Source: an uncultured Candidatus Bathyarchaeia archaeon (GTDB lineage: Archaea; Thermoproteota; Bathyarchaeia; Bathyarchaeales; Bathyarchaeaceae). Taken from it: 27,445 bases of DNA. The notes beneath the pieces are model-generated. The model was not told the origin of the DNA. It worked only from the letters and a program-made list of their open reading frames with translations, and did no database searches. The DNA is taken from NCBI GenBank assembly GCA_964386655.1, contig CAYLSJ010000003.1:1-27445 (forward strand), given 5' to 3'. The translations under genes were made by a program, and so were the position numbers. Shown in pieces: positions 10,203 to 24,965 of the stretch (position 1 is its first letter; every line of letters starts with the position of its first letter).

Positions 10203-10350
10203 TTAGTTGCCTATCATAGCTTCTTTGAAGCGGGATAATAGATTTTAGAGTTGCCATGGCGAACAGCATTCTAAGCTGTTTTCAGTGGTAAAGTGCGTGT
10301 ATGAGGAGGCTGACTTTAGCTTTTGACCAAATGCCAGACACCTAGAGAAT

Positions 10351-10370
10351 AGTTCCAGAAAGTTTAAAAT
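10351..10370 (+). promoter_or_regulatory. AGTTCCAGAAAG motif + TATA
   Basis: AGTTCCAGAAAG-TTTAAAAT. The 12-mer is identical at 16229-16240. Confidence 0.6.
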
Positions 10371-10419
10371 CTCTGATGATTAATATTAGGTGATGAAAAA
10401 GGAGAAAGGAGAGGTTTTC

Positions 10420-11697
10420 GTGAACATTAAGATAGTGAAACCAAAAAGCTACCTATTGGTCTTGATGCTTCTCATGAGCTTCTCGACGATTGGCATGTTA
10501 GGTTTGATAGCACCTGTGAAGGCACAATCTCACCCGCTTCCCTTGCTAAAAGTGGAAAACCCATCTCCGGCATTGTATCAGGTTTGGTTGACGAGCGAAG
10601 GCGAGCCACCTGCCGGCGTGGATCCATACTGGGACATCCAAGGAATCGACGTTTACATGTACTTCAATAAAGATGCCCTGACAGCAGTCCCATACAGTCC
10701 CAGTTCTCCTCTTAACCTCAACAAAGCTGGATGGAAAGTCTTCTGGCCAAACCCGCTTACACTTGCTCCTACGACTACGCTTGTAAATGAAATCAACAAC
10801 GCTAAAGGGTATGTAAGAGCTGCCTTTGTTGGGCTTCCTCTTACGGGTGGTGCGCACACTCCTCCAAATGGCAAAATACTCATGTTCTCGGCGATTTTCA
10901 CAGTCGACGATCCATTGCTGCCACCAGACGTAAAACTGAAAAATCCAGATCCTCGACCTGTAGTTCCTCCTTGGGGACAGGAATCTTTTCCAGTGGCTGT
11001 TTCAGGGTTTGCACACCCAGAGCGCCCTGAATCTCCATGGAACGGAGCTCCATGGGCGGTGCCAATTCCACATTTCGTGAGCAACCCAAATGCACGATTC
11101 TTGGTTTCAGACGCCATTCCAAAGAAGGATAAGATAGTCTACTTTGATGCTTCCATTAGTCATCACCCAAGCTTTATTGAGAGCTACGAGTGGGACTTGA
11201 ATGGTGATGGCACGGTCGACGCTACAGGCATGACTCCAACCTATTCTTATTCCACACGAGGAATGTACAAAGTGACTCTTAAAGTCACAGACCTCACAGG
11301 ATTGACTGACACAGCGTCACGCACGATCGCGGTAGAGGTATTCCGGGTCGCCAAGGCTGAACACACTGTGCAAGATATGTCAGATGACCCTGACAACACT
11401 ATCACTATTACAATGGTAAACAATGGGATCATCACAGGATTAGTTAAGCTCAAGGTCGACATATTCAACCGAAGAACTGGGATGAGGCCGATGCCTCCAC
11501 TTGAAGCAATTGGCGCACTGCCTGTTTCAACTCCGCCTGAAACCACTGATCTAAGCGTAGTGTTTACACCCCCAGACCCGGCTACGTATGACTTAACTGT
11601 GGAATGCTTCTATTTCGATGATTACACCGAGACGTGGGAACCGTTAAGAGAGTACAAGCTCGGAACATTGAAGCTCGTCATAAAAGCCGTACCATAA
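10420..11697 (+). CDS. Secreted protein: signal - divergent cohesin-like - PKD - Ig-like, no anchor (start likely GTG 10420)
   Basis: SD GGAGAGG before the GTG, hydrophobic signal ending VKA|Q, IQGIDVYMYFN..NEINNAKGYVRAAF..MFSAIFTV, PKD YEWDLNGDG..YSYSTRGMYKVTLKVTD. No C-terminal TM or dockerin. Confidence 0.75.
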   Translation: MNIKIVKPKSYLLVLMLLMSFSTIGMLGLIAPVKAQSHPLPLLKVENPSPALYQVWLTSEGEPPAGVDPYWDIQGIDVYMYFNKDALTAVPYSPSSPLNLNKAGWKVFWPNPLTLAPTTTLVNEINNAKGYVRAAFVGLPLTGGAHTPPNGKILMFSAIFTVDDPLLPPDVKLKNPDPRPVVPPWGQESFPVAVSGFAHPERPESPWNGAPWAVPIPHFVSNPNARFLVSDAIPKKDKIVYFDASISHHPSFIESYEWDLNGDGTVDATGMTPTYSYSTRGMYKVTLKVTDLTGLTDTASRTIAVEVFRVAKAEHTVQDMSDDPDNTITITMVNNGIITGLVKLKVDIFNRRTGMRPMPPLEAIGALPVSTPPETTDLSVVFTPPDPATYDLTVECFYFDDYTETWEPLREYKLGTLKLVIKAVP

Positions 11698-11726
11698 GCG
11701 ACAAGAGCCAGTAACAAGACACAAAA

Positions 11727-11757
11727 GCGCACGAATGTGCGCCTATCCCCCTTTTTT
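11727..11757 (+). terminator. Hairpin + oligo-T candidate terminator
   Basis: GCGCAC-GAAT-GTGCGC (11727-11742) followed by T6 at 11752-11757. Confidence 0.5.
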
Positions 11758-11794
11758 ATGTTTAGTTCGGTAGTGTGGAAAAGGAGATGGATCA

Positions 11795-13630
11795 ATGCCC
11801 AACAAGCGAGTTCATCTGGTTGCACTGACGCTGTTGGTGATTCTATTTTCTGTTATCATTGTATCCAGTGGCTTCACAATGGCTTGGTCACTTGACATGA
11901 GGTTAACATGGGATGAAGAATATGACGCTATGCCATCCGTAATCCAAACGACAGACGAAAAAATATGGGTTTTTTGGCATTCATACAGAACGAATGATGC
12001 GGAAATCTTCTATAAGGTTTATGACGGAAGTCAAGTGCATCCTTGGTCGCTGGAAATGAGGCTAACTAATAATCAAAGCGAGGACGGAACTCCAAGCGCC
12101 ATGCAAGCTGCAGATGGGAAAATGTGGGTTGTATGGATGAGTAATAGGGTTGGAAACTATGAGATCTTCTACAAAATTCGCGACGGCATATCATGGTCAC
12201 CGGATTTTAGACTCACCTTTGACGCTGCTGTTGACGAACTCCCTTCAATCATGCAAACAGAAGACGGCAAGATTTGGGTTTTCTGGGACTCTGGAAGAAA
12301 TGGAAACTATGATATATTTTACAAGACTACGCTTGACAGTGGACAAAACTGGTCTCCTGATTCTAGGCTTTCCATTTCGTCTACAAGTGCCGACGACTGG
12401 GACCCATCAGTTATGCAGGCTAAGGACAACAAAATTTGGCTTACTTGGGTAAGGAACGATCATGTTTACTACAGTGTTTTTGACGGATCTTTGTGGTCAT
12501 CTGCTTCGAAAGTAACTTCGGGCGGACTCGACAATTGGCATCCTTCCATTATGCAAACTCAAGACAGCAAAATCTGGGTTGTGTGGGATGCAGGGAAGGT
12601 CTCAGCAACGCAACCTGTTCCAACAGACATTTACTATAGTGTTTTTGATGGGTCGTGGTCTTCTCCTTTGCAGATAACAACAGACTCGGCTGAGGATTTC
12701 ATGCCATCAGCCATTCAGGATAATGGTGGAACTATCTGGGTAGTTTGGACTTCTGACCGAAGTCCTTTTACTGATTTGTACTACCGACTAAACTCCACAT
12801 CTCCCGCTCACGATGTCGAGATATTTAGTGTCATCCCGTCTAATCCATCGGTTGTTTTAGATGAAAGCGTTTCCATTGAAGTTGTGGCTAGAAATCTTGG
12901 AACGAACAACGAGACATTTGAGGTTCAACTCTACGCTAACTCAACTTTGATAGGATTTCAGATGGTTTGGGATCTGTTTCCCGGGCAACTTTACCCGATT
13001 GACTTTATTTGGGACACAATGGGCTTTGATCTGGGTAAATACATTATCAGCGCTAACGCTACAATTATCGCTGAAGAGACGAACACAGATAACAACTTTT
13101 TTACCGATGGGGTCGTCAGCGTTGATTGGCGTGATGTCGCAGTGACTGAGTTGACACCTTTTAAAACTGTTGTTGGGCAAGGTTTCACTCTCAATGTAAG
13201 AACGATTGTGGAAAATCAGGGCACTTGCACTGAAACCTTTGATCTAATAGTCTACTACGACGTAACTCCGTTTGGTAGGCAGACCCTTACCTTGGAACCT
13301 GGAAATTCCGCTACAGTTAGTTTTGCTTGGAACACCGCAAGTATAGCTAAGGGCAATTACTTCTTAAGTGCAGAAGCAACTGTAGTGCCTTTCGAAAAGG
13401 ATACAAATGACAACTTCGGCACCGACGGCATAGCCACTGTTACGATTCCAGGTGATGTCAATGGCGATAGAGTTGTTGACCTGCTGGACTTGAATGCCCT
13501 GTGCAGAGCTTACGGGTCTGCCCCGGGAAGTTCAAGGTGGGATTCAAACTGTGCTATCAACGACGACTCCATAATTGATGGTGTTGATCTTGCAATAGTC
13601 GGCAAAAACTTTGGAAAGACAGACTTGTGA
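11795..13630 (+). CDS. Secreted protein: 6-repeat BNR/Asp-box-like beta-propeller - CARDB x2 - dockerin
   Basis: Six repeats of about 50 aa (WS...RLT....D..PS.MQ..DGKIWV.W.S.R.GNY.IFYK), one Asp-box TTLDSGQNWS, CARDBs HDVEI.. and RDVAV.., and dockerin GDVNGDRVVDLLD..AYGS..W..AINDDSIIDGVD..KNFG at 13451-13630. Confidence 0.85.
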   Translation: MPNKRVHLVALTLLVILFSVIIVSSGFTMAWSLDMRLTWDEEYDAMPSVIQTTDEKIWVFWHSYRTNDAEIFYKVYDGSQVHPWSLEMRLTNNQSEDGTPSAMQAADGKMWVVWMSNRVGNYEIFYKIRDGISWSPDFRLTFDAAVDELPSIMQTEDGKIWVFWDSGRNGNYDIFYKTTLDSGQNWSPDSRLSISSTSADDWDPSVMQAKDNKIWLTWVRNDHVYYSVFDGSLWSSASKVTSGGLDNWHPSIMQTQDSKIWVVWDAGKVSATQPVPTDIYYSVFDGSWSSPLQITTDSAEDFMPSAIQDNGGTIWVVWTSDRSPFTDLYYRLNSTSPAHDVEIFSVIPSNPSVVLDESVSIEVVARNLGTNNETFEVQLYANSTLIGFQMVWDLFPGQLYPIDFIWDTMGFDLGKYIISANATIIAEETNTDNNFFTDGVVSVDWRDVAVTELTPFKTVVGQGFTLNVRTIVENQGTCTETFDLIVYYDVTPFGRQTLTLEPGNSATVSFAWNTASIAKGNYFLSAEATVVPFEKDTNDNFGTDGIATVTIPGDVNGDRVVDLLDLNALCRAYGSAPGSSRWDSNCAINDDSIIDGVDLAIVGKNFGKTDL

Positions 13631-13736
13631 TTGATACTGAACTTTGTTGAATTCACCAGGTGTTTTGACGCGTTTCTGAGAGGAGTTTTAGGAGTGAAAA
13701 GCGTATGTTGTTTTTTAGACACATTTTTTTGTGGAT

Positions 13737-13752
13737 AAGAAAGTTTAAGAAT
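13737..13752 (+). promoter_or_regulatory. BRE/TATA-like box
   Basis: AAGAAAGTTTAAGAAT about 35-45 nt upstream of ATG 13785. Confidence 0.55.
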
Positions 13753-13784
13753 ATACCTCATTATATAAGGATTGAGGGAAGAGA

Positions 13785-16052
13785 ATGGAAAGGAAACGCC
13801 ATATGAAAGTTTTGGTTTTTACGTGGCTTCTCTTGGGCTTCTTCGTTTCAAGTTTTATAGATATTCGAACAGGCAATTCGCTCCCTGGAACAACAATTCT
13901 TGTGGCTCCTTCAGAAGTTACAAAAGCTGTTGGTGAAACCTTCGACATTAAGGTAAATATCTCTGATGTAACTAATCTTTATGGCTTGGACATTCAATTT
14001 TGGTGGGACTCAACCCTTTTAAAATACATTAGCAAGAATGTTAGGATTCCTAAAAGTACTTACTCTGACGGTGTTCTCTGGTCTCCATTCTTGAAATACA
14101 AGGACGTGGTCGATGCGGCAGCTGGTACGTACTGGCTTGCAGCATCCTCTTTCGGGGTCGCCAAGTCATTTAATGGTTCGGGAACAGCGTTCATCATGAC
14201 CTTCGAAGTCTTAAGAGAGGGCGCCTGTTATCTACACTTTACAAGTACTGGTCTAGGGGACAAGCCTGCTTCACCAGGTGAACCTTCAGAGCCAATTCCC
14301 CATGAACGCGTAGACGGTAAGTTCAGCACAGCTGGGGCTGGCTTGGCGCCTTTTGCAAGTTTTACTTTTGAGCCAGCGAAAGTCTTTGTGAACAAGACAA
14401 CCGTCACTTTCAACGCAACGGATAGTTATGATCTTGACCCGAGTGGAAACGTAACCCTCTATATGTGGAATTTTGGAGACGGAAATAAAACAAACACGCC
14501 GGATCCCATAATAACCCATGTTTACACTCTGGGCGGGATAGATTATTCAGCTGCCTTACAGGTTAAAGATAACAACAACAGCTTAAGCTTTCCCTACGTT
14601 AAATCCGTGCTTGTAATAGACTATTCCGATGTAAAAATAGATGAAGTCGAAGCTTCGCCACTCTCTGTGTCTAGAGGCTCAAATGTGACAATCGACGTCA
14701 CAGTCAGCAACATCGGCATCACAAGCCCACCCACCTTCAACGTCACAACCTACTACAACAAAACAGCAACAGAATGGATAAAAATCGATACACGACGTGT
14801 GGAAATTCTAACCAAAGGCACCACTACGACTTTGACATTCAATTGGACAACTCGAGTCACCCCCGACGCTTATTATAAGATAAAGGCAAACACAACCATA
14901 ATCGAAAACGACTATGACCTCAGCAACAACGCTGCGGAGAGCGACACATTAGTATATGTAATGCCAGGTTATCCTGTAGCCAGCTTCATCTATGCACCAG
15001 ATATTCCAGTACCCAGAGAACAAGTGACTTTTGATGCTCGAGCCAGCTCTGATCCAGATGGAAAAATTACCGAATACAGATGGAATTTCGGAGATGGAGC
15101 TAAAGAGAACACTGCCAACCCAATTGTAACTCATGCTTACGAGACTCCGGGCACCTACAATGTGACCTTAACAGTTGTTGACGATGATGTAGAACAACTA
15201 AAAGGGTCTTCCACTATGTGGGTGCAAGTATCCGTATACTATTCATTAGACGTCACAATTGATGTTGGATCAATACACTTCGCAGGTGAGGCAGCTGAAT
15301 TTTACATCAAGACATCAAGGTTAGGCAAACTCTTCAACGCCACGGAAATCACGGCAGTTCTTTATTATTCATACGGAACCAAATATTTGGACCTAAGTGA
15401 AAACATACGAATCATAAAAACTGGGGTCTACAGGTTACCGTACGTTCTGCCGTCAGACGCTTTAACGGGCACATACACACTTGTTGTCCAAGCAAGCTAT
15501 CTTAACCTTGAAGGAACCGCTCTCAAGAGCTTTCTGGTAAGCCAAACGTTAACTGGTTGGAACCCACTGCTGCTCAGCATCAACGGAACTGTGGCAACAA
15601 TAAAAACCGACGTAGGTCTGGTTCAGATGAAACTGGAAGACATCAACGCAACATTAATCGAGATTATTGTTGATAGCGAGGGCGAAATCCTTGCGAAGAT
15701 AGACTCGGCAGTTGGAACAATAATGGCAGAATTGAGCACAATTAACGCAACTCTAACCGATATAATTGTTGATAGCGAGGGCGAAATCCTTGCGGAGATA
15801 GACACTGCGCTGGGAACGGTAACGGCACAACTGGATACAATCAATTCTAGGGTCGTTGCCATTGACGGCAATGTTATCACTATAAAGACTGATCTTGGCA
15901 CAATCAAAACCACAACAAGCGATGTACAAACCTCTGTTGCAGGCGTCCAAACAACCGCCTCAACTTCTCTCTATGTGACTTCAGCGTTTTCGGCTATTGC
16001 AGCAGTGGTTGCAACCGTAGTTTTACTTCTATTGAGAAAAAAGCCTAAATAA
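13785..16052 (+). CDS. Membrane-anchored surface protein: signal - cohesin-like - PKD - CARDB - PKD - Ig-like - helical repeat stalk - TM
   Basis: Cohesin-like domain at about 13890-14330 (GETFDIKVNISDVTNLYGLDIQFWWDSTLL..FNGSGTAFIMTFEV), two PKD motifs W(N)FGDG, a 33-aa repeat stalk, and C-terminal TM + RKKPK. Confidence 0.85.
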   Translation: MERKRHMKVLVFTWLLLGFFVSSFIDIRTGNSLPGTTILVAPSEVTKAVGETFDIKVNISDVTNLYGLDIQFWWDSTLLKYISKNVRIPKSTYSDGVLWSPFLKYKDVVDAAAGTYWLAASSFGVAKSFNGSGTAFIMTFEVLREGACYLHFTSTGLGDKPASPGEPSEPIPHERVDGKFSTAGAGLAPFASFTFEPAKVFVNKTTVTFNATDSYDLDPSGNVTLYMWNFGDGNKTNTPDPIITHVYTLGGIDYSAALQVKDNNNSLSFPYVKSVLVIDYSDVKIDEVEASPLSVSRGSNVTIDVTVSNIGITSPPTFNVTTYYNKTATEWIKIDTRRVEILTKGTTTTLTFNWTTRVTPDAYYKIKANTTIIENDYDLSNNAAESDTLVYVMPGYPVASFIYAPDIPVPREQVTFDARASSDPDGKITEYRWNFGDGAKENTANPIVTHAYETPGTYNVTLTVVDDDVEQLKGSSTMWVQVSVYYSLDVTIDVGSIHFAGEAAEFYIKTSRLGKLFNATEITAVLYYSYGTKYLDLSENIRIIKTGVYRLPYVLPSDALTGTYTLVVQASYLNLEGTALKSFLVSQTLTGWNPLLLSINGTVATIKTDVGLVQMKLEDINATLIEIIVDSEGEILAKIDSAVGTIMAELSTINATLTDIIVDSEGEILAEIDTALGTVTAQLDTINSRVVAIDGNVITIKTDLGTIKTTTSDVQTSVAGVQTTASTSLYVTSAFSAIAAVVATVVLLLLRKKPK
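15642..15839 (+). repeat. Intragenic 99-bp (33-aa) tandem repeat x2
   Basis: The 30-mer ATTGTTGATAGCGAGGGCGAAATCCTTGCG is identical at 15666 and 15765. Units are INATL.(E/D)IIVDSEGEILA.ID.A.GT..A.L.T. Confidence 0.92.
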
Positions 16053-16065
16053 ACTCTGCACTTCC

Positions 16066-16076
16066 AACCCTTTTTT
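16066..16076 (+). terminator. Oligo-T candidate terminator
   Basis: T6 at 16071-16076, about 20 nt after the stop. Confidence 0.45.
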
Positions 16077-16228
16077 GTTACCGAGCAAAGCCTATTCAAC
16101 TTTACAGTTAGACTCCCTGGATAGTGCACTTTTGCGTGCATTTCCACAAATTCACCAGCCAGCTTGTCTTTGCATGACTTTTAGCTTTCACCATCTAATA
16201 CTATTGCGTTTCCTTTGCTATAGAGAAA

Positions 16229-16250
16229 AGTTCCAGAAAGCCTTAAATTA
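16229..16250 (+). promoter_or_regulatory. AGTTCCAGAAAG motif + TATA upstream of the substrate-binding protein
   Basis: AGTTCCAGAAAG-CCTTAAATTA, with SD GGGGAG before ATG 16303. Confidence 0.6.
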
Positions 16251-16302
16251 TCAATATACGACATTTACATGACGAACAAAACAGAAGAGAAAGGGGAGAG
16301 TT

Positions 16303-18720
16303 ATGAAGATAAAATGCTCGTCCATAGTGCTAATTACGACTTTGGCTCTTTTGACCACACTTGTATCAACGCCAGCACCAGCGAAAGCAGCAGGGACTGG
16401 TGGTCCACGGGCTCCTGGATTGAAGATTTACTTCTATGCTTCAACTGACGCGGCATTTGGCGCTATAGTGGCAGACCCGCCCGAGATTGACCTCTATGGT
16501 GGTATGCTCCTAAAGCCCCAATATGACCAAGCAATAACAGATTCCGACTTGACACTGTCGCAGTTCACAACTACTTTCACCATCACGAACCATGCATTCA
16601 TGAGTTCCGACGAAGATTGGGTGTTTGCATGGCTTGGAGAACGCAACCCGATAAGCGAAGTACACTTCAGAAAAGCCATGGAACATTTGGCAAACAGAGA
16701 TGCATGGATAGAGACCATCCTTGAAGGAATGGGAAAAAGAATCGATGTGCCAGTTGCAGCTCCATCTGTAGCTTGGATGAACGAGAGCATAATCGGCTCA
16801 AACTATCCATACCCATACAGTCACGCACTTGCTAAGGCTGAACTGCTTGCGGGCGGCTGGGAAGACTACGACAACAACGGAATAATCAACTATCCATTAG
16901 ACTGGCCTGGCAAAGCTGGAGTGATAGGCGTCAGAGACGAACCCGACATGGACGCACTTATATACTATGCCTACAACACACCTGCCACAAGATATGCCAT
17001 GGCTCTAGACCACGCAACCCAAATCCAAAACATAGACTGGGGAGGCGGTGTCAAAAAGAAGATTCCTGTAACCCTAACCGCTCAATCTTATGACTTCTTT
17101 GATACAGTCGTGTGGACCGACTACAAGTATCAAATTGCCACAGACGGTTGGAGCGTAGGAAGATACCCAACATATCTTAGAAGCTTCTTCGGCAGCGGAT
17201 ACTGGTGGCCTGGAGAGGGTGGAGTTAACGCCTACACCCCAGGATATCCAGAACTCGATGCAGCTCTTGACAATATGTTCTTCGCTCCAGACTTGGGTAC
17301 AGCCATTACTAATGCCAAACTCGCTCAAAGCATAATCATGGACAAATACGCCCTCTGGATCCCAATATGGTCAGGCGCGGGCTTCTACGCCTACAGAAAC
17401 TTGTTAGGCGTCGTGTCAACACCCAACACAGGACCATTCAACTACTTCACTGAAATGAACGCCATTCGCTCAGACGATGCAACACAGCCCATCAGAGTTG
17501 GCATAGTTCCAGCACCAATGGCACTCAACCCAATAACCTCAATGTGGGTGGTCGACGTAACCGTCATGCAGGAACCTTGGGACGGTGTCATTAACACCAA
17601 CCCGTACGACGTGCTGATAGACCAGCCAAACTTAGCTAGGGACTGGAGTGTCACAACCTGGAGTGGGGGTGGAGTTACTGGCACACTGGTCAAATATTGG
17701 CTCGACACCCGTTATAATTGGATCAAGCCAGGAACGGGACCAGACGCTGGCACAATAATTGGACCGCACGACACCAGTAACCAAGAATTCGTTGCTTGGT
17801 ATCACTTCCACACTCCATCTTGGGTTCGCGCTTCCTACCGAGACATACACCACATCAGAGTTATTGATAACGATGAGATTGAGTACTACTTCAACAAGAT
17901 CGGTGTCTTCTACGGCGCCAACTTCTATCCATGGGCAAGGGTGTTCTATGTACCACCAGGCGAGAACAAGGGAGGATGGAAGACATATCCACTTGTTCAA
18001 GATGGAGATCCTGGCACACCTGTGGGACCTGACGGCGTCACAGGACTTGACCCATCACAGAAAACACTCATCTCAGGCACGATATCTAACGCAACCCATG
18101 TGGCAACCCCACCGTATGGAACGGGAAGGGTGGCAGCGACAGCCCTACCATTCCGAGCGGCAGGCGCAGCTGTAGAAATACTATCAGTGACGGCTGGAGG
18201 CTCACCGCTAACAAAATACACTGACTACGAGATAGAATCGGGCTACGTCACAATTCACGCGTCAGTAGCGCTCGGTACACCAATTACCATCAGATACTGG
18301 GCTAGAGGCAGCTACGCTGGGGACCTACCAGGCGGCTTACCATTCGAAAAGACCCTGATGGGCACAGGCATCTGGTACATGACAGAATACATCCCAGGAA
18401 GCTGGGCAGTCTACAAACCTAACAGATTACACCCATGGACAACTCCACCACTAGGAGAAACCGACTGGTTGTGGATGTGGACAAGCTCAGTCAAACCAAG
18501 AACTGGTAACATGGAAATCACCATCGCTGACTTCGTCAAGGGCACAACAGCATACGCAAGCCACGCTAACAAGGTACCGAAGCCAACCTGGAACCCAAGT
18601 GCAGACCTAGCTAAAGTGGTTACTGGAAATGCACCTAACGGAATAGGTGAAATCACCGTAGAAGACATAAACACCATAGGCGGACCTGCCTACGATACAA
18701 CATTCTGGGAACTACCATAA
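16303..18720 (+). CDS. Family-5 (Dpp/Opp-type) ABC substrate-binding protein, apparently circularly permuted, with C-terminal dockerin-like tail
   Basis: Recognisable SBP5 segments: HFRKAMEHLANRD, YSHALAKAELLAGGW, IRVGIVPAPMALNP, QPNLARDW, MGTGIWY. It is the first gene of the dppBCDF cluster. Sec signal ends AKA|A. No lipobox or TM. Confidence 0.8.
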   Translation: MKIKCSSIVLITTLALLTTLVSTPAPAKAAGTGGPRAPGLKIYFYASTDAAFGAIVADPPEIDLYGGMLLKPQYDQAITDSDLTLSQFTTTFTITNHAFMSSDEDWVFAWLGERNPISEVHFRKAMEHLANRDAWIETILEGMGKRIDVPVAAPSVAWMNESIIGSNYPYPYSHALAKAELLAGGWEDYDNNGIINYPLDWPGKAGVIGVRDEPDMDALIYYAYNTPATRYAMALDHATQIQNIDWGGGVKKKIPVTLTAQSYDFFDTVVWTDYKYQIATDGWSVGRYPTYLRSFFGSGYWWPGEGGVNAYTPGYPELDAALDNMFFAPDLGTAITNAKLAQSIIMDKYALWIPIWSGAGFYAYRNLLGVVSTPNTGPFNYFTEMNAIRSDDATQPIRVGIVPAPMALNPITSMWVVDVTVMQEPWDGVINTNPYDVLIDQPNLARDWSVTTWSGGGVTGTLVKYWLDTRYNWIKPGTGPDAGTIIGPHDTSNQEFVAWYHFHTPSWVRASYRDIHHIRVIDNDEIEYYFNKIGVFYGANFYPWARVFYVPPGENKGGWKTYPLVQDGDPGTPVGPDGVTGLDPSQKTLISGTISNATHVATPPYGTGRVAATALPFRAAGAAVEILSVTAGGSPLTKYTDYEIESGYVTIHASVALGTPITIRYWARGSYAGDLPGGLPFEKTLMGTGIWYMTEYIPGSWAVYKPNRLHPWTTPPLGETDWLWMWTSSVKPRTGNMEITIADFVKGTTAYASHANKVPKPTWNPSADLAKVVTGNAPNGIGEITVEDINTIGGPAYDTTFWELP

Positions 18721-18751
18721 AACAGATGAACCAGCAAGCCAAACACTCTAT

Positions 18752-18765
18752 TTCCTCTTTTTTTT
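18752..18765 (+). terminator. Oligo-T terminator after the SBP gene
   Basis: TTCCTC + T8 (18758-18765). Confidence 0.6.
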
Positions 18766-18785
18766 GTGTATTTCTGCAAGAATTT

Positions 18786-18799
18786 AAACCTTAAATACC
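18786..18799 (+). promoter_or_regulatory. Candidate internal promoter for dppB
   Basis: AAACCTTAAATACC about 55-65 nt upstream of ATG 18852. Confidence 0.5.
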
Positions 18800-18851
18800 T
18801 CTTGTCTTAAAAGGCTTCACAGACCATCAAAGGAAAAGGTTGAGAGAGAAG

Positions 18852-19847
18852 ATGGGTCTTAGAGGCTATATTGCTAAAAGAGTTGTTTATAGTCTGATCC
18901 TCCTATGGGCCATTATGACCCTAAACTTCATAATTTTCGTAATGATGCCTGGAGACCCCATCTCCAGATACATCAAGGCACAAGAAGGAAGAGAAACATC
19001 TAAGGAAGACCTAGAGGTACTTAAAAAAGTATACGGCGTAGATGTGCCCTTACAAGAAAGGTACTTTCTGTACATTAAAAACATGCTAACATGGAATTTC
19101 GGAAGAACCCGATACATAGAAAACCCAATAGCCCTAGAAATCACACGCAGATTAGGAAACACCTTGCTGCTGACGAGCACAGCCGCATTTTTCTCCATAA
19201 GCGTTGGTACATTACTCGGTGTACTCATTGCGTCAAGAAGAGGAACTAAAACAGACACAGGAACAGTCACTGGCGCATTGGTCCTTTCCAGTTTACCCGT
19301 GTTCTGGATAGGCTGGTTAATCCTTTTCGTTTTTGCAATACAGCTGGGCTGGTTTCCAGTTGGTGGAACTTACCCGAAATGGTGGGCGGGCAATTGGCCA
19401 ACCGACCCTCTGGTGTACCTTTCAGGGCGAATCCTGACCTTAGTCTTGCCAGTACTCACTCTCTTCATCTTAACTTTTGATGGATGGATGCTTTTAACGA
19501 GAGCATGCGTACTTGAAACCATCACTGAAGACTTTGTCGTGACTGCTAAAGCAAAGGGATTGAGACAGAGATCGGTCTTGCTAAAACATGTACTAAAAAC
19601 TGCATCACTTCCTTTAGTTACTGCAATAGCCCTAACTATTTCTGGGCTTTGGGGAGGCGCCATAATAACTGAAACATTGTACAGTTACGATGGACTGGGC
19701 AGATGGGTATATCAAGCAATAACACAACAAGATATTCCAGTTTTGTACGTCATTTTCTACATAGACGCACTCATGATAATCATTGCAAACTTCGCAGTAG
19801 ACTTGGTTTATGGGTTCATAGATCCACGAATAAAGGTTGGTAAATAG
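18852..19847 (+). CDS. dppB: Peptide ABC transporter permease, DppB/OppB-type (start likely ATG 18852)
   Basis: YIAKRVV..MPGDP N-terminus, RLGNTLLL, and EAA-like loop EDFVVTAKAKGL..VLLKHVLK. Confidence 0.92.
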   Translation: MGLRGYIAKRVVYSLILLWAIMTLNFIIFVMMPGDPISRYIKAQEGRETSKEDLEVLKKVYGVDVPLQERYFLYIKNMLTWNFGRTRYIENPIALEITRRLGNTLLLTSTAAFFSISVGTLLGVLIASRRGTKTDTGTVTGALVLSSLPVFWIGWLILFVFAIQLGWFPVGGTYPKWWAGNWPTDPLVYLSGRILTLVLPVLTLFILTFDGWMLLTRACVLETITEDFVVTAKAKGLRQRSVLLKHVLKTASLPLVTAIALTISGLWGGAIITETLYSYDGLGRWVYQAITQQDIPVLYVIFYIDALMIIIANFAVDLVYGFIDPRIKVGK

Positions 19848-19850
19848 CTG

Positions 19851-21461
19851 ATGTCAACATACAAAGAACGAGTCGTTTTCACACTGAAAGGGCTCAAGCA
19901 CTTTTGGACAGAGTATAAACAAACCAAGCGAGGAGTAGTAGGATTCGCAATCATTTGCATTTACATCGCACTTGGCATTCTAGGACCTATTCTGTCGCCA
20001 CACGACGCTTTAAACCCATCATGGCCCGGATATTACCCTGCAGGCAGAGCTCTCATTGCAGACTACTTAACTTTGCCAGGCTGGTACAGATACTTGCCTG
20101 GAGGAGGCGGTTTGTCAGAAAACACAAAACTAATACAAGATCACGAATTCTCAACGGAGCAAGCTATGAATGCATGGAAATGGGAAACCAACGCTCCCAA
20201 CTTTGCTAACCTGAAATATAATCCTGTGAAGGGAGACCGTAACGAAGGAGCCATGGAAGTAACCTACCTACGTGAAACTGGAGCTACTCCCTTGAACAAA
20301 ACCTACGTGCGAATAACCCATGATTTCAGATGGCCGTACAGAAGTCATCCGAGGCAATTTTGGCTACATGCATCCACCCTTGTCAACGGCACAGTTTCCT
20401 TACCTAACTATGTTGAAATAGAATTCATGTTTCACAGAACACAAGCTCCTCCACCTTTAGCTGATTACGAATACCCACTTGTGTCCACTGAAGATTCTTT
20501 AGTTGTCTATACCTATCCACTCATCACAGAGACCATCAGCAGTCCGAGCATAGCTTGGTACCATCAATGGATAAGGTCGAAAACAGAGAAAATCAACCTT
20601 GACCCAAAGTATTATCTTCAACCAGAAACAGTCATATTCCCAGCCCCAGGCAATTACACCTACGAAATCAAAGTAAGTTTTCAAGACAGTGGAGGTCTCC
20701 AAAAAAACATAACAGTATACTTAGATAACCTAGATGTGCTGCTTTACGGAGAGACATACGGCATCCTTGGCACAGATCGGAACTTGGGTTATCCACGAGA
20801 CATAGCCACATCATTAATGTACGGGGCAAGAATCTCCATCGCTGTAGGCTTAATAGCCGCCTCAATATCCGTGTCCCTCGGTCTACTTTTGGGCTTAATT
20901 GCAGGATACATTGGCGGTGTCACAGATGAAGCTGTAATGAGAATAGCAGATCTTCTCATAGCTCTTCCAGGCTTGCCACTAATAATAATTTTGACTGTGG
21001 TGCTCTCAAGCTCTATATGGAATGTTATAGTGATCTTATCCTTCTTAGGATGGATGGGATTCTCACGCAATGTAAGATCAATGACACTATCCCTGCGTGA
21101 AAGAGCCTTTATTGAAGCTGCCAAAGCTGCTGGAGCCGGCAGATTCCACATAATATTTAAGCATATTCTTCCTAACGTGTTTGCCCTAGTCTATCTTGCG
21201 CTTGCAGTGTCGGTTCCGGGAATCATTGTTGCAGAAGCTACGTTGAGTTGGCTTGGATTATTTGATCCATATCAGATATCTTGGGGAAGAATGCTCGGTG
21301 AATTTTCCAACTCTGGAGTTGCGGTTTCGAAAGGATTCGCTGAATACTGGTTCTGGGTAATGCCACCGGGCTTAGCAATATCCATGTTAGCCATTGCATT
21401 CATACTAACAGGCTATTCTCTGGATGAAATACTAAACCCAAAACTTAGAGCCAGACGCTGA
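19851..21461 (+). CDS. dppC: Peptide ABC transporter permease, DppC/OppC-type, with large extracytoplasmic insertion
   Basis: GILGTD..RDI..LMYGARISI, MRIADLLIALP, EAA loop FIEAAKAAGA..IIFKHILPN, WWVMPPG-like end. An insert of about 240 aa follows TM1. Confidence 0.92.
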   Translation: MSTYKERVVFTLKGLKHFWTEYKQTKRGVVGFAIICIYIALGILGPILSPHDALNPSWPGYYPAGRALIADYLTLPGWYRYLPGGGGLSENTKLIQDHEFSTEQAMNAWKWETNAPNFANLKYNPVKGDRNEGAMEVTYLRETGATPLNKTYVRITHDFRWPYRSHPRQFWLHASTLVNGTVSLPNYVEIEFMFHRTQAPPPLADYEYPLVSTEDSLVVYTYPLITETISSPSIAWYHQWIRSKTEKINLDPKYYLQPETVIFPAPGNYTYEIKVSFQDSGGLQKNITVYLDNLDVLLYGETYGILGTDRNLGYPRDIATSLMYGARISIAVGLIAASISVSLGLLLGLIAGYIGGVTDEAVMRIADLLIALPGLPLIIILTVVLSSSIWNVIVILSFLGWMGFSRNVRSMTLSLRERAFIEAAKAAGAGRFHIIFKHILPNVFALVYLALAVSVPGIIVAEATLSWLGLFDPYQISWGRMLGEFSNSGVAVSKGFAEYWFWVMPPGLAISMLAIAFILTGYSLDEILNPKLRARR

Positions 21462-21638
21462 CAACTGTAGCGCTTGTCATCCCTAACTCAAAAGACCGAT
21501 TCTGTCATGTAGAAACCACCAATATCCTTTCTGTCAATTCATGATGCTTGAACGGCAGGTCACCAAAAACTTATTTAGCGAAATGTATTTCAACATATGT
21601 TCCAACTATTAACAAAACCATAACCCAAGGTAAATAGA

Positions 21639-22607
21639 ATGGCACTGCTTGAGGTCAACGATCTAGTAACTCATTATATTACGCTTAGGGGCTCAGTAAA
21701 AGCAGTTGACAAGATCAGTTTCCAAATAGAGAAAGGAGAAGCAATGGGATTAGTTGGAGAATCAGGTTGCGGCAAAACCACTGTTGCCTTGTCTCTCCTT
21801 AAAATTCTGCCTTCAGGTGGAAGAATCATCAATGGCAAAATTCTCTTCAAAGGCGTAGACATAGTCCAACTTGAAGAAGAAGAAATGCGAAAGAGCATCA
21901 GGTGGAAAGGAATATCACTTATATTCCAAGGAGCCATGAACGCGCTCACTCCCGTTTACAAAATTGGATATCAAATTATCGAAGCGATTAGAATACACGA
22001 ACCCGATGTGGACAAGAAAGAGGCCACAGAGAGAGCGAAAAAACTTCTCGAAATGGTCGGAGTCGAACCTAAAAGAATTGACAACTACCCCCACGAATTT
22101 AGTGGCGGAATGAAACAACGCGCAATGATCGCTATGGCCCTAGCATGCCATCCTGATCTTTTGATTGCAGATGAACCCGCAACAGCCTTAGACGTAGTTG
22201 TTCAAGCGCAGGTTCTTGAACTTATCAAAGCGCTTAAGGACAAGTTGCACTTATCAATGATGTTGATAACACACGACTTGTCAATTGTTGCTGAGACGTG
22301 TGAAAAGATTGCCGTTATGTATGCTGGAAAAATCGCGGAATACGGAGATATAATCACTATTTTTAAGGAACCTTTGCATCCGTATGCTCAAGGTTTACTG
22401 GAAGTATTCCCAAATATTAAGGCGCAGAGAAGTCGTGCTATGTCCATACCAGGTTCTCCACCAGATTTATTATCACCTCCCAGTGGCTGTCGATTTCATC
22501 CGCGTTGCAAGTACAGAATGGAAATTTGCAGTAAGAAGGAGCCAGCAGTCACTGAAGTCAAAAGAGGGCTACATTATGCCGCCTGCCACCTCTTATACAA
22601 AGCCTGA
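21639..22607 (+). CDS. dppD: Peptide ABC transporter ATPase, DppD/OppD-type
   Basis: Walker [10 protein letters not shown], signature FSGGMKQR, Walker B LLIADEP, HPY, and C-terminal GCRFHPRC Cys cluster. Confidence 0.95.
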
Positions 22608-22620
22608 TGAAGGTATAAAA

Positions 22621-23616
22621 ATGCAAGAAACAGTTGTAAAAGCCGTTGAATTAACAAAATGGTTTCCCGTGAGAATGGGCTTTTTTGGAAGCTTGTTTTT
22701 CAAACAAGAGCAGTATGTCCGAGCAGTAGATGGAATAGACCTAGAAATCAAAAGAGGCGAGATTTTTGGACTTGCGGGAGAAAGCGGTAGCGGAAAAACG
22801 ACTACTGGAAGGCTGCTTGTCAAACTTATTGAACCTACTCAAGGGAAAATTTTTTTCCATGGGCAAGATATAACGGCTCTCTCAGAAAGCTCGTTTAAAC
22901 CTCTACGTCGAAAAATCCAGATAGTATTCCAAGACCCTTACGAGTCACTTAACCCTAGAATGACTGTCTTCAACATTATCGCTGAACCATTGCTACTGCA
23001 ACAGATTGCTAGCGGGGCTCAAGTTGAAGAGAGAGTTCATAAAGTTCTGGAAGAGGTGGAATTAACTCCCGCTCGGGAATTTCTCTACCGATACCCTCAC
23101 GAGCTCAGTGGAGGCCAAAGGCAACGTGTAGCGACAGCAAGAGCCTTAGCTTTGAACCCAGAGTTTATTGTTGCCGATGAACCTGTTTCCATGTTAGATG
23201 TTTCTGTGAGAGCAGAAGTTCTAAACCTGATGTTTCATTTAATGGAAAAATATAATGTGTCATTCTTGTACATCACCCACGACTTGGCATTAGCCCGTCA
23301 CATCTGCAATTCGATAGCCATTATGTATTTGGGCAGAATTATGGAAAAAGCTCCTACAGAAAAGATTGTGTACGAACCCCTGCATCCCTATACAAAAGTG
23401 CTTATCGCAGCGGTTCCAGTTCCTGATCCTACGGTAAGGCGTGTAAGAGCCATGGTTAAAGGGGAAATCCCAAGTTCAGTGAACCCCCCGTCTGGATGCA
23501 GGTTCCACACTAGGTGCCCAGAGTTCATTGGAGATATTTGCAAAACAAAAGAGCCGGTGTTAACCGATGTTGGCAGTGGACAATGTGTTGCATGCCACTT
23601 GTACTCTAAGCGATGA
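22621..23616 (+). CDS. dppF: Peptide ABC transporter ATPase, DppF/OppF-type (start ATG 22621, not 22384)
   Basis: Walker A GESGSGKTT, LSGGQRQR, IVADEP, HPY, GCRFHTRC. The ATG lies 13 nt after the dppD stop. Confidence 0.95.
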   Translation: MQETVVKAVELTKWFPVRMGFFGSLFFKQEQYVRAVDGIDLEIKRGEIFGLAGESGSGKTTTGRLLVKLIEPTQGKIFFHGQDITALSESSFKPLRRKIQIVFQDPYESLNPRMTVFNIIAEPLLLQQIASGAQVEERVHKVLEEVELTPAREFLYRYPHELSGGQRQRVATARALALNPEFIVADEPVSMLDVSVRAEVLNLMFHLMEKYNVSFLYITHDLALARHICNSIAIMYLGRIMEKAPTEKIVYEPLHPYTKVLIAAVPVPDPTVRRVRAMVKGEIPSSVNPPSGCRFHTRCPEFIGDICKTKEPVLTDVGSGQCVACHLYSKR

Positions 23617-23802
23617 AAGAACTATTCTTATCCTAAAGGAAGGAGCATCGAACGGAATCGGGAGTTACTGTAACATTCTGAACTTCTCTTAATGACTACA
23701 CATTTTTGAGTATGCCTTGATTTTGCGCTTTAGACGAGGCAGCTGGGTTTTTTCCTCTCTTTCTGATTCCATATGTCTTTGTGGTATTTAACCCTCGAAG
23801 AT

Positions 23803-23824
23803 AGTTCCATAAGTTTTAATTAAT
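23803..23824 (+). promoter_or_regulatory. AGTTCCATAAG motif variant + TATA
   Basis: AGTTCCATAAG-TTTTAATTAA about 35-45 nt upstream of ATG 23859. Confidence 0.5.
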
Positions 23825-23858
23825 TGTATTCCGAAAGTCTTCTTGGTCGTCGATTGAG

Positions 23859-24965
23859 ATGTTTCGGAAACTTACCTTAATCTGCGTCTTGTTACTGGCA
23901 GTAACACTATTGTTTAACGTAGGAGTCCAGGTGTGTATAAGCCAAGTCCCGAGAAATATCATGGTTTCTTTCGACGCTAAACTTGACGTATTCAGCCCTC
24001 AGCCTCCGCTGGACATATCTGTATGGTTCGAAGCTGAGGTTCTCTACGACGGTGAGCCAACGCATCCGACGCTGCCCGCAAACACAGTGACGTTGCAACT
24101 GCTAGTCAACGGTTCACTCGTGAATTCCTACCTGTATCCATACTCGTTACCAGTTGGTTCAAAATTCACTTACACTTACAAATGGGTTCCCACGGCGGAG
24201 GGTAAGTATAATCTTACGGCCTACGTGCCTCCACTGGCTTGGGAGACAATACGGGATGATAACGTTGAATGGGACGTTGTGCCAATATTCGAGCCGATTG
24301 TGAACCCTCGTGTTTATGTTGATCCGCCAAGCATTACGGTATACAAGGGCGAAATCTTCACAGCTAGAGTAAATATTGCCAATCTCTCTGACCTTTACGT
24401 TCGCGACCAGACCATGTACGATATTCCTCTTGGAAATTTCTACGGCGCTGATTTCTACTTCTATTACGACTCTTCAAAATTAGCTGTTCTTGATTTCACT
24501 ATGCCTATCTGGTGGATTTTTGCGGACAATTCAACCGCTGGAACCTTCTATGTCCTGGGAACATCGTATCCTCCTGAGCCACCATTGAACAACTATCCTT
24601 ATCCTGGAAGCACCACTGTTTTAGAGATAACGTTCAGGGCAACCGCTACAGGAATTGTTTCTCTAAGCCTTCCCATCGGAAACATGATGCTTGTAGATAA
24701 AGACGGAAGATACATCGGAAGAGACGCAATATGGGAACCAACCTATCTGTCTGCTACCTATGGATCTGTGAGGATTAAGATAGTAGGCGATGTGAACGGC
24801 GATGGCATCGTAGATTTCCGTGATCTGTATGCACTCGGTAGAGCTTATGGAAGTGTGTCAGGCTCAGGGGACAACTGGAACAGAGAATGCGACTTTAACA
24901 GAGACAACAAAGTGGATTATCTTGATCTATCAGCCTTACTTAAGAACTACGGCAAAACAGAGTAA
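23859..24965 (+). CDS. Secreted protein: signal - CARDB/Ig-like - cohesin-like - dockerin
   Basis: Cohesin-like domain at about 24303-24780 (VYVDPPSIT..GEIFTARVNIANL..IPLGNFYGADFYFYYDSSKL..VLEITFRA). Dockerin from 24786 has two intact Ca loops, DVNGDGIVDFRD and DFNRDNKVDYLD. Confidence 0.85.
   Translation: MFRKLTLICVLLLAVTLLFNVGVQVCISQVPRNIMVSFDAKLDVFSPQPPLDISVWFEAEVLYDGEPTHPTLPANTVTLQLLVNGSLVNSYLYPYSLPVGSKFTYTYKWVPTAEGKYNLTAYVPPLAWETIRDDNVEWDVVPIFEPIVNPRVYVDPPSITVYKGEIFTARVNIANLSDLYVRDQTMYDIPLGNFYGADFYFYYDSSKLAVLDFTMPIWWIFADNSTAGTFYVLGTSYPPEPPLNNYPYPGSTTVLEITFRATATGIVSLSLPIGNMMLVDKDGRYIGRDAIWEPTYLSATYGSVRIKIVGDVNGDGIVDFRDLYALGRAYGSVSGSGDNWNRECDFNRDNKVDYLDLSALLKNYGKTE

What the first reader, a model, noticed from the sequence alone, without database searches (positions are those of the whole stretch)
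18451..18720. ABC substrate-binding protein is anchored by neither lipid nor TM but ends in a cryptic dockerin
Seen: cleavable signal (..PAKA|A), no lipobox, no C-terminal hydrophobic helix. The tail LGETDW..GNMEITIADFVKGTTAYAS..PTWNPSADLA..GIGEITVEDINTIGGPAYDTTF keeps the register of the two clear dockerins in this window (GD..D..VD..D....AYGS..W...D.N.D..(I/V)D..D.....N(Y/F)G), with both Ca loops expanded by insertions. Known: archaeal SBPs are normally retained by a lipid or TM anchor. Inference: this SBP is held at the cell by docking on the neighbouring TM-anchored cohesins, a different way to tether a transporter's binding protein. A standard HMM may miss it.
Basis: partly seen in the sequence, partly recalled or inferred. 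Interest (0 to 1): 0.82.

Follow-up and report, generated by a model that had tools for sequence, protein, structure and literature searches.

The report
Cryptic dockerin tail on archaeal SBP
The last 90 residues of this Bathyarchaeia peptide-transporter binding protein are a diverged dockerin that standard domain models miss. It probably clips the protein onto membrane-anchored cohesin proteins encoded next door; that kind of tether has been noted from genome annotation in other archaea but never tested.

Summary
ORF 16303..18720 encodes an 805-aa family-5 (Opp/Dpp/Nik-type) substrate-binding protein (SBP). It has a Sec-type signal peptide, no lipobox and no later hydrophobic helix.

Its tail (aa 713-805) is homologous to dockerins:
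- Profile-profile probability is 99.2% (E 7e-20) against dockerins of the same lineage.
- The best PDB sequence hits are dockerins.
- An AF2 model (pLDDT 88.5) has dockerins as its top ten Foldseek hits.
- Pfam Dockerin_1 misses all 112 family tails tested.

The module defines a large family: 499 clusters, and every genome hit is Bathyarchaeia. In that family it always follows the SBP core without a linker. A conserved Trp-rich hairpin is inserted in Ca loop 1.

The acidic loop positions 1 and 12 are nearly invariant. In 8 of 8 loci where such an SBP heads an ABC operon, cohesin genes lie within 10 kb. In 8 orphan loci there are none.

Docking onto the neighbouring cohesins is therefore plausible but unproven. 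Some paralogues add a canonical dockerin after the tail, and the window's own tail is among the most divergent. Dockerin-bearing SBPs were already noted in ANME archaea in 2022.

Verdict: a new variant of a known kind, of moderate interest.

The parts
16303..18720 (+). Gene for the 805-aa family-5 (Opp/Dpp/Nik-type) substrate-binding protein with a dockerin-like tail
   Evidence: ORF list; Pfam SBP_bac_5; PDB profile hits AppA/NikA/CBP; Foldseek
16303..16389 (+). Sec-type signal peptide (aa 1-29, MKIK...PAPAKA|AG). No lipobox Cys after the h-region, no twin arginine
   Evidence: Read from the sequence; hydropathy 1.94. Cleavage is inferred, since no signal-peptide predictor was available
16390..18438 (+). 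SBP core (aa 30-712). No hydrophobic helix
   Evidence: Core HMM covers aa 7-711 of the 98%-identical P0001; maximum KD19 is 1.36
18439..18717 (+). Dockerin-like tail (aa 713-805). It follows the core without a linker
   Evidence: hhalign 99.2%; AF2 pLDDT 88.5; Foldseek top 10 are dockerins; tail HMM aa 714-805, 5e-29
18457..18465 (+). E719-T-D721. By position and by the preceding P-x-G these match positions 1-3 of Ca loop 1 (canonical PGD-V-D/N)
   Evidence: E 108/112 and D 109/112 in the family; the correspondence itself is inferred
18466..18504 (+). Insertion in loop 1 (aa 722-734, WLWMWTSSVKPRT), a Trp-rich beta-hairpin
   Evidence: Strands at tail residues 12-14 and 23-26 in the model. 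W/F at 722, W at 724 and 726, P732 and R733 are conserved. Insert length varies widely across the family, from a few residues to over 20
18505..18561 (+). End of loop 1 (G735...T740...D743) and helix 1 up to AYAS
   Evidence: G735 109/112, D743 112/112; helix at tail residues 29-37; aligned to dockerin columns 6-30
18601..18666 (+). Ca loop 2 (A767-D768 ... D788), with an 8-residue insertion (aa 773-780, 18619..18642) found only in the closest relatives
   Evidence: D768 110/112, D788 109/112; insertion columns are occupied in 4-14% of sequences
18658..18693 (+). Helix 3 and the conserved Tyr (VEDINTIGGPAY)
   Evidence: Helix at tail residues 74-81; Y797 104/112
18840..19847 (+). ABC permease 1 (OppB/NikB type)
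   Evidence: Pfam BPD_transp_1; NCBIfam
19851..21461 (+). ABC permease 2 (OppC type), with an extracytoplasmic insert of about 260 aa
   Evidence: Pfam OppC_N 16-52 and BPD_transp_1 344-533. The insert has no Pfam hit and is not cohesin-like (hhalign 1.2%)
21639..22607 (+). ABC ATPase 1 (OppD type)
   Evidence: NCBIfam
22600..23616 (+). ABC ATPase 2 (OppF type). The listed ORF starts at 22384; the true start is probably near 22600
   Evidence: Pfam ABC_tran + oligo_HPY
8148..10202 (+). Candidate docking partner: signal peptide, N-terminal cohesin, PKD/CARDB stalk, C-terminal TM helix
   Evidence: Cohesin related to ORF 13785's, 2.8e-23; cohesin profile hits type II cohesins in the PDB, 9.5e-14; Pfam PKD/CARDB; C-terminal KD19 2.82
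13785..16052 (+). Candidate docking partner: N-terminal cohesin, PKD/CARDB stalk, coiled-coil repeats, C-terminal TM helix
   Evidence: PDB 3l8q (ScaB cohesin) 8.6e-7; Pfam; C-terminal KD19 2.41
23859..24965 (+). Cohesin + canonical dockerin protein (adaptor-like), directly after the ABC genes
   Evidence: Pfam Dockerin_1 1.7e-7; cohesin HMM 7e-33
11795..13630 (+). Secreted repeat/CARDB protein ending in a canonical dockerin
   Evidence: Pfam CARDB and Dockerin_1, 4e-5

Best explanation
The gene encodes the substrate-binding protein of an Opp/Dpp-type ABC importer of a Bathyarchaeia archaeon. It is exported through Sec, and its signal peptide is probably cut after PAPAKA.

Its last 93 residues are a diverged dockerin: two EF-hand-like calcium loops, each followed by a helix. 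A conserved tryptophan-rich beta-hairpin is inserted in the first loop. This protein also has an extra 8 residues in the second loop.

The protein has no lipid or membrane anchor of its own. The tail most likely binds, calcium-dependently, a cohesin domain on one of the surface proteins encoded around the transporter genes. Two of these, ORFs 8148 and 13785, are held in the membrane by a C-terminal helix. That would keep the binding protein tethered near its permease.

Shown: homology and predicted fold of the tail, absence of other detectable anchors, cohesin identity and TM anchors of the neighbours, and conserved gene linkage. Inferred: signal-peptide cleavage, calcium binding, cohesin binding, and which cohesin is the partner.
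For: Dockerin homology:
- hhalign 99.2%, E 7e-20 against lineage dockerins, with controls at 0.3% and 1.2%.
- PDB top sequence hits are dockerins.
- AF2 pLDDT 88.5 and Foldseek top 10 are dockerins.
- An HMM of 16 canonical dockerins hits the tails of most relatives at 1e-4 to 2e-8.
- One relative has a fully canonical second loop, ADLNGDCLIDIVD.

Loop positions 1 and 12 are nearly invariant in both loops: E719 108/112, D743 112/112, D768 110/112, D788 109/112.

No other anchor:
- In 68 full-length relatives there is an N-terminal signal-like segment and no TM-grade hydrophobic stretch afterwards (maximum 1.99).
- 51 of them end within 12 residues of the tail.

The partners exist. There are three cohesin domains in the window, two of them on TM-anchored stalks.

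Linkage:
- Cohesin ORFs lie within 10 kb in 8/8 ABC-linked tail-SBP loci and in 0/8 orphan loci. My own one-sided Fisher test on these counts gives p about 8e-5, but the loci are not independent.
- The full gene order is conserved in L002 at 38% SBP identity.
- In the window and in L002, counting the tail gives 3 cohesins to 3 dockerins.

Relatives that add a canonical dockerin show that this SBP family does use cohesin-dockerin display.
Against:
- The tail was never seen apart from the SBP core. It joins the core through a conserved, linker-less junction (ETPPLGEIDW), so it may pack on the core.
- Sixteen of 68 relatives carry C-terminal extensions of 73-784 residues, and several of those tested end in a canonical dockerin. 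That would be redundant if the tail already docks.
- Orphan family members keep the tail with no cohesin or ABC genes nearby.
- Loop position 5 of loop 1 is usually Tyr, not Asp.
- The window's tail is unusual. It has Thr at position 9 of both loops (5/112 and 3/112), AYAS for AYGS, and an 8-residue insert. The canonical-dockerin HMM does not reach it.
- The cohesins sit at the far end of stalks of about five Ig-like domains. Delivery to the permease would therefore need a flexible stalk.
- The full-length AF2 model gives pLDDT <50 for the tail, so its position relative to the core is unknown.
Confidence: 0.55

Rival explanations
1. The tail is dockerin-derived but no longer a docking module. 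It would be a built-in calcium-binding subdomain that stabilises this unusually large SBP, or that contacts something other than a cohesin, for example the roughly 260-residue extracytoplasmic insert of permease 2.
For: - It is always fused to the core without a linker.
- Some paralogues add a canonical dockerin after it.
- Orphans keep it without cohesin neighbours.
- All eight ABC-linked loci have an OppC-type permease enlarged to 492-648 aa.
- Loop 1 is heavily remodelled.
Against: - The permease insert shows no cohesin likeness (hhalign 1.2%; no PDB or Pfam hit).
- Exposed helix positions vary while Ca-ligand positions stay fixed, as in docking modules.
- This reading offers no alternative retention mechanism.
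- The cohesin linkage of the ABC operons is 8/8.
Confidence: 0.27
2. The SBP is retained by other means and the tail plays no part in localisation. The means could be an uncleaved N-terminal signal anchor, or simple trapping of an 85-kDa protein under the S-layer.
For: - The h-region is long (about 18 residues, KD19 1.94).
- No signal-peptide predictor was available.
- The envelope of Bathyarchaeia is not characterised (own knowledge).
Against: - A good A-x-A site (AKA|A) follows the h-region.
- Crenarchaeal oligopeptide SBPs with SPase I signals are described as needing a separate C-terminal TM anchor (PMC3387779).
- Conservation of the tail's Ca-ligand positions across 112 sequences calls for a function.
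Confidence: 0.13
3. The dockerin resemblance is chance or a composition effect, and the tail is an unrelated C-terminal extension.
For: Pfam Dockerin_1 finds nothing. PDB sequence and Foldseek E-values are individually weak, 0.02-0.2.
Against: Three independent methods converge on dockerins:
- hhalign E 7e-20, with negative controls.
- Top PDB sequence hits.
- Top 10 structural hits.

In addition, intermediates with short loop-1 inserts and a canonical loop 2 exist.
Confidence: 0.03

Closest known systems
Canonical dockerin modules (Pfam PF00404 Dockerin_1; type I/II dockerins of cellulosomes, e.g. PDB 4u3s_B, 2y3n_B)
   Same: - Two tandem segments, each a Ca loop plus helix.
- Conserved acidic residues at loop positions 1 and 12.
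- AYGS-like end of helix 1 and YG after helix 3.
- C-terminal position in a secreted protein.
- Cohesin genes nearby.
- The neighbours' cohesins and the tail both match type II pairs best.
   Different: - Not detected by the Pfam model.
- An insert in loop 1, varying widely in length and reaching over 20 residues, forms a Trp-rich hairpin.
- Position 5 of loop 1 is usually Tyr.
- One or more extra residues in loop 2.
- No flexible linker, and never seen apart from one particular catalytic or binding domain.
Dockerin-bearing SBPs of ABC transporters in ANME archaea (Chadwick et al. 2022, PMC9012536)
   Same: Archaeal NikA/OppA-type SBPs carrying a dockerin, in genomes rich in cohesins. The implied mechanism is surface tethering.
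   Different: - Those were found by standard domain libraries, so they are canonical dockerins in Halobacteriota.
- Here the dockerin is cryptic, in Bathyarchaeia (Thermoproteota).
- Here it is linked in one gene cluster with TM-anchored cohesins.
- Neither case has been tested experimentally.
Known archaeal SBP anchors: C-terminal TM helix after an S/T-rich linker (Sulfolobus, Aeropyrum OppA), lipobox lipidation, archaeosortase, class III signal peptide/bindosome (review PMC3387779)
   Same: The same need: keeping an exported binding protein at the cell surface. An SPase I-type signal peptide as in crenarchaeal oligopeptide SBPs.
   Different: None of these signals is present here. There is no C-terminal TM, no lipobox, no PGF/PEF-CTERM and no [KR][GA] prepilin site.
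Non-cellulosomal archaeal cohesin-dockerin pairs (Archaeoglobus fulgidus; cited in PMC9012536 as refs 166-168)
   Same: Archaeal cohesin-dockerin binding has been verified experimentally for canonical modules, according to that paper.
   Different: Those have no link to transport and are canonical dockerin sequences.

Membership tests
Dockerin domain (PF00404 / dockerin fold) | Match to the curated family model (Pfam Dockerin_1 above gathering score) | tested here: not met
   No hit for the window tail, even at E<=10. 0/14 and 0/112 relatives hit. The window's two canonical dockerins pass.
Dockerin domain (PF00404 / dockerin fold) | Detectable homology to bona fide dockerins by profile-profile comparison | tested here: met
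   hhalign 99.2%, E 7.3e-20, 55 aligned columns; controls 0.3% and 1.2%. PDB top sequence hits are dockerins.
Dockerin domain (PF00404 / dockerin fold) | Fold: two loop-helix segments packed as a pair of helices | tested here: met
   AF2 pLDDT 88.5, helices at tail residues 29-37 and 74-81. Foldseek top 10 are all dockerins, probability up to 0.94, rmsd 3.0 A over 62 columns, although E is only 0.2. This is a prediction, not an experiment.
Dockerin domain (PF00404 / dockerin fold) | Two 12-residue EF-hand-like Ca loops with Asp/Asn at positions 1, 3, 5, 9, 12 | tested here: inconclusive
   Positions 1 and 12 are nearly invariant in both loops and position 3 of loop 1 is D in 109/112. However, loop 1 is split by a variable-length insert, position 5 is mostly Tyr, position 3 of loop 2 is A or D, and the window has Thr at position 9 twice.
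Dockerin domain (PF00404 / dockerin fold) | Ca2+-dependent binding to a cohesin | not testable with these tools
   No complex prediction or experiment was available. The only evidence is indirect: gene linkage, 8/8 against 0/8.
Dockerin domain (PF00404 / dockerin fold) | Modular: occurs on different carrier proteins, usually behind a linker | tested here: not met
   In the 150 best of 499 hits, every protein with enough N-terminal sequence has the SBP core ending exactly where the tail begins.
Family-5 / cluster C substrate-binding protein of an Opp/Dpp/Nik ABC importer | SBP_bac_5 sequence and fold | tested here: met
   Pfam 9.3e-11, above cutoff; PDB AppA 4e-14; Foldseek E about 1e-13 to CBP/AppA/NikA. 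Caveat: only aa ~43-352 align, and they align to the C-terminal half of known SBPs. Aa 355-712 give no PDB sequence hit on their own.
Family-5 / cluster C substrate-binding protein of an Opp/Dpp/Nik ABC importer | Encoded with two permeases and two ATPases of the same transporter class | tested here: met
   OppB/OppC/OppD/OppF-type genes lie directly downstream. The same holds in L001, L002, L009, L015, L016, L017 and L019.
Archaeal SBP anchors (lipobox, C-terminal TM, archaeosortase signal, class III signal peptide) | Presence of any of these sorting signals | tested here: not met
   No Cys after the h-region. The C-terminus is ...YDTTFWELP, with KD19 <=1.36. There is no [KR][GA] prepilin site. 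These were checked by eye and hydropathy only.

The most novel reading that the evidence does not exclude
Bathyarchaeia have a lineage-specific dockerin variant with a hairpin in loop 1 that is invisible to Pfam. It is built into hundreds of Opp-type binding proteins, some of them fused to peptidases or beta-helix domains. Through it, and through TM-anchored cohesin stalks encoded in the same operon region, they would assemble a surface complex that captures peptides or oligomers and hands them to the importer. This would be a transport-coupled counterpart of the cellulosome and a fifth way of anchoring archaeal binding proteins.
Probability: 0.4. Interest if true: 0.7.

Novelty: new variant of a known kind. 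Interest (0 to 1): 0.55.

Why it matters
Reviews list four ways in which archaea hold binding proteins at the surface (PMC3387779). Cohesin-dockerin tethering is not among them. It has been mentioned only once, from domain annotation in ANME archaea.

This family would extend the idea to Bathyarchaeia, an abundant, uncultured sediment lineage thought to live on detrital protein. It also shows that domain-model surveys undercount dockerins: none of the 112 tails tested is seen by Pfam.

The operon-level linkage of transporter, TM-anchored cohesins and dockerin proteins gives a small, defined set of partners. These can be tested in vitro without cultivating the organism.

Tried and rejected
- Pfam on the tail alone and on 14 and 112 relatives found no dockerin.
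- Full-length AF2 with 14 sequences gave a tail pLDDT <50, so it says nothing about how the tail sits on the core.
It worked only with a tighter tail alignment.
- I tested whether the large extracytoplasmic insert of permease 2 is a hidden cohesin. It is not: hhalign 1.2%, and no PDB or Pfam hit.
- I tested whether aa 355-712 of the SBP match any solved structure by sequence. They do not, so a circular permutation of the SBP fold stays an open guess.
- phmmer of the ORF 8148 cohesin alone against the PDB failed. Its identity rests on homology to ORF 13785 and on the cohesin profile.
- Peer et al. 2009 could not be read.
- I rejected a class III signal peptide, archaeosortase signals and a Tat motif by inspection.
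- I give little weight to the 3:3 cohesin:dockerin count, because L015 does not follow it.
Full report
**1. What is there**

ORF 16303..18720 (+) encodes 805 aa. The finding's interval 18451..18720 is codon 717 (L of LGETDW) through the TAA stop.

The protein is a family-5 substrate-binding protein (SBP):
- Pfam SBP_bac_5 9.3e-11, above the cutoff.
- The 14-sequence family profile hits AppA (4e-14), NikA, chitin-oligosaccharide and dipeptide SBPs in the PDB.
- The AF2 model hits the same fold, E about 1e-13.

It is followed by OppB-, OppC-, OppD- and OppF-type genes. The cluster is flanked by two S9 peptidases, an M14 carboxypeptidase and two MFS transporters. This fits peptide uptake.

The N-terminus (MKIK, about 18 hydrophobic residues, PAPAKA|AG) looks like an SPase I signal. 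No Cys follows the h-region. After aa 45 the highest 19-residue hydropathy is 1.36. The C-terminal TM helices of ORFs 8148 and 13785 score 2.82 and 2.41.

**2. Is the tail a dockerin?**

Pfam says no, for this tail and for every relative tested. Three other approaches say yes.

(a) Sequence profiles.
- Thirteen homologues (27-98% identity) all keep the tail. The consensus is PLGEIDWxWxW..G.KPR.GYxxIxIYDxV....AYGS.G...P.P.W.PGAD.A....G.I.IYD..T..G.YG..F..PPP.
- A profile of these tails puts dockerins at the top of the PDB: 4wi0_B and 4u3s_B at E 0.02-0.03, and 5k39_B. The deeper profile does the same.

(b) Profile-profile comparison.
- 112 tails (A3) against 16 canonical archaeal dockerins (A4) give hhalign probability 99.2%, E 7.3e-20.
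- A4 holds the window's two dockerins plus terminal dockerins of family members, several of them confirmed by Pfam.
- The match covers tail columns 22-80 and dockerin columns 6-60.
- Controls from the same lineage are negative: tail against cohesin 0.3%, permease insert against cohesin 1.2%.

(c) Structure.
- AF2 on the tail with A3 gives pLDDT 88.5 and pTM 0.77. It shows a hairpin (strands at tail residues 12-14 and 23-26) and helices at tail residues 29-37 and 74-81.
- Foldseek's first ten PDB hits are all dockerins. The best has probability 0.94. The rmsd is 3.0 A over 62 columns, and the TM-score normalised to the 60-residue dockerin 2y3n_B is 0.62. E-values are only 0.2-2.5.

Further support:
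- An HMM of the 16 canonical dockerins hits the tails of most relatives at 1e-4 to 2e-8. It does not reach the window's own tail.
- Relatives with short loop-1 inserts exist, for example GDIDFVKTGGVYKVDIFD. One has a canonical loop 2, ADLNGDCLIDIVD. These bridge to ordinary dockerins.

**3. Anatomy of the variant**

Canonical: P-G-D1-V-D/N3-G-D5-x-x-V8-D9-x-x-D12-helix.

Tail, loop 1: P-L-G-E1-I-D3-W-[hairpin W.W..G.KPR.]-G-Y-Y-x-I8-D9-I-Y-D12.
- E719 is E in 108/112 sequences, D721 is D in 109/112, G735 is G in 109/112 and D743 is D in 112/112.
- Position 9 is D or N in 82/112.
- Position 5 is mostly Tyr.

Tail, loop 2:
- D768 is D in 110/112 and D788 is D in 109/112.
- Position 3 is A (59) or D (39).
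- Position 9 is D (48), G (46) or N (10).

The window's protein is an outlier:
- Thr at position 9 in both loops.
- AYAS instead of AYGS.
- An 8-residue insert in loop 2 that very few family members share, most clearly its 98%-identical relative.

The two halves of its tail resemble each other (G.MEITIAD... and GIGEITVED...), as dockerin repeats do.

**4. Distribution**

- The tail profile finds 499 clusters (at 50% identity) at E<=1e-3, and 161 at <=1e-10.
- All ten genome hits are Bathyarchaeia MAGs, some with two or three copies. P0002 is named Bathyarchaeota.
- In the 150 best hits, the tail begins exactly where the SBP core HMM ends whenever enough N-terminal sequence is present. It was never seen on another carrier.
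- Of 68 full-length members, all start with a signal-like segment and none has a TM-grade stretch later (maximum 1.99).
- 51 of them end within 12 residues of the tail. Sixteen have extensions of 73-784 residues.
- Several extensions are CARDB-type domains ending in a Pfam-detectable dockerin: P0058 9e-6, P0063 6e-5, P0142 3e-5.

**5. Surroundings**

The window holds three cohesin domains:
- ORF 13785: PDB ScaB type II cohesin, 8.6e-7.
- ORF 8148: 2.8e-23 to the ORF 13785 cohesin.
- ORF 23859: cohesin HMM 7e-33.
- A profile of 11 cluster cohesins hits type II cohesins at 9.5e-14. These include 4u3s_A and 2y3n_A, the partners of the dockerins that best match the tail.

ORFs 8148 and 13785 are built as signal peptide, cohesin, PKD/CARDB stalk and C-terminal TM. 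ORF 23859 is cohesin plus dockerin. ORF 11795 ends in a dockerin.

The whole gene order recurs in L002, where the SBP is only 38% identical.

Across all fetched loci:
- Tail-SBPs that head an ABC operon have a cohesin ORF within 10 kb in 8 of 8 cases: window, L002, L007, L009, L015, L016, L017/18 and L019/20.
- L001 is cut 475 bp upstream and cannot be judged.
- Eight orphan loci, without ABC genes, have none.
- The loci are related by descent, so the one-sided Fisher p of about 8e-5, my own arithmetic, overstates independence. The contrast is nevertheless clear.

**6. Mechanism and its limits**

The most economical reading has three steps. The SBP is exported and loses its signal peptide. It is then held at the surface because its dockerin-like tail binds a cohesin of the cluster. 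Two of those cohesins are membrane-anchored.

Shown:
- Homology and predicted fold of the tail.
- Conserved Ca-ligand positions.
- Absence of other detectable anchors.
- Cohesin identity and anchoring of the neighbours.
- Gene linkage.

Inferred:
- Signal-peptide cleavage.
- Ca binding.
- Cohesin binding and the choice of partner.

Against:
- The tail is welded to the core and might pack on it.
- Some paralogues add a normal dockerin.
- Orphans keep the tail without cohesin neighbours.
- Clusters also contain canonical dockerin proteins that could occupy the cohesins.
- The window's tail is the least canonical of the family.

The main rival is a dockerin-derived structural or Ca-binding subdomain. 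I tested one concrete version of it, that the enlarged OppC-type permease offers a cohesin-like receptor. I found no support.

**7. Comparison with what is known**

- The review of archaeal secreted proteins lists four anchors for SBPs: C-terminal TM, lipobox, archaeosortase and class III/bindosome. It does not mention cohesin or dockerin (PMC3387779).
- Chadwick et al. [quoted passage not shown]
- I found no paper linking Bathyarchaeia SBPs to dockerins.
- The concept is therefore known at the annotation level. New here are the cryptic variant, its size and lineage, and the operon linkage with TM-anchored cohesins.

**8. Verdict**

- Observation: confirmed.
- Interpretation: partly supported.
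- Dockerin homology: about 0.95.
- Functional cohesin docking: about 0.55.
- Novelty: a new variant of a known kind.
- Interest: 0.55.

Noticed in passing
window 18436..18630: Against the 98%-identical relative (L023), nucleotide differences pile up in the first two thirds of the tail: 14 in about 200 nt, against about 1 per 200 nt elsewhere. In the tail dS is 0.064 and dN 0.038; in the core they are 0.011 and 0.0046. This points to a local hot spot, recombination, or strain-chimeric assembly in the docking module.
   Followed up: partly
window 19851..21461 (about aa 58-320): The OppC-type permease carries an extracytoplasmic insert of about 260 residues with no Pfam or PDB match. Enlarged permeases (492-648 aa) accompany every ABC-linked tail-SBP. 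The insert is not cohesin-like by hhalign.
   Followed up: partly
window 16303..18438: The SBP core aligns oddly. Aa ~43-352 match residues ~224-495 of known cluster C SBPs (Pfam 84-296 to model positions 192-361). Aa 355-712 match nothing in the PDB by sequence. The SBP may be circularly permuted or heavily remodelled.
   Followed up: partly
window 15645..15841: A 99-bp tandem repeat (2 copies, 80% matches) encodes a 33-residue coiled-coil-like repeat. It lies just before the TM helix of the cohesin protein ORF 13785 (weak Pfam DUF7310 hit).
   Followed up: no
L005 10001..12754 (P0006); P0130: Family members exist with other domains fused N-terminally to the SBP+tail: Peptidase_M10 in P0006 and NosD/beta-helix in P0130. 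P0006 sits among housekeeping genes, without ABC or cohesin genes nearby.
   Followed up: no
window 10390..11697: This is a secreted PKD protein with no TM, dockerin or cohesin hit. Its N-terminal domain (aa 49-233) recurs directly after the cohesin in long stalk proteins of L015, L007 and L009. It is conserved in synteny in L002.
   Followed up: partly
window 7318..8001 and L002 783..1496: A small protein (227 aa) with hydrophobic segments at both ends and no Pfam hit lies upstream of the first cohesin gene. A 237-residue gene occupies the same position in L002; I did not test whether the two are homologous.
   Followed up: no
window 8148..24965 and L002 1557..18348: If the SBP tail is counted, both clusters hold three cohesin domains and three dockerins. 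L015 does not follow this count.
   Followed up: partly
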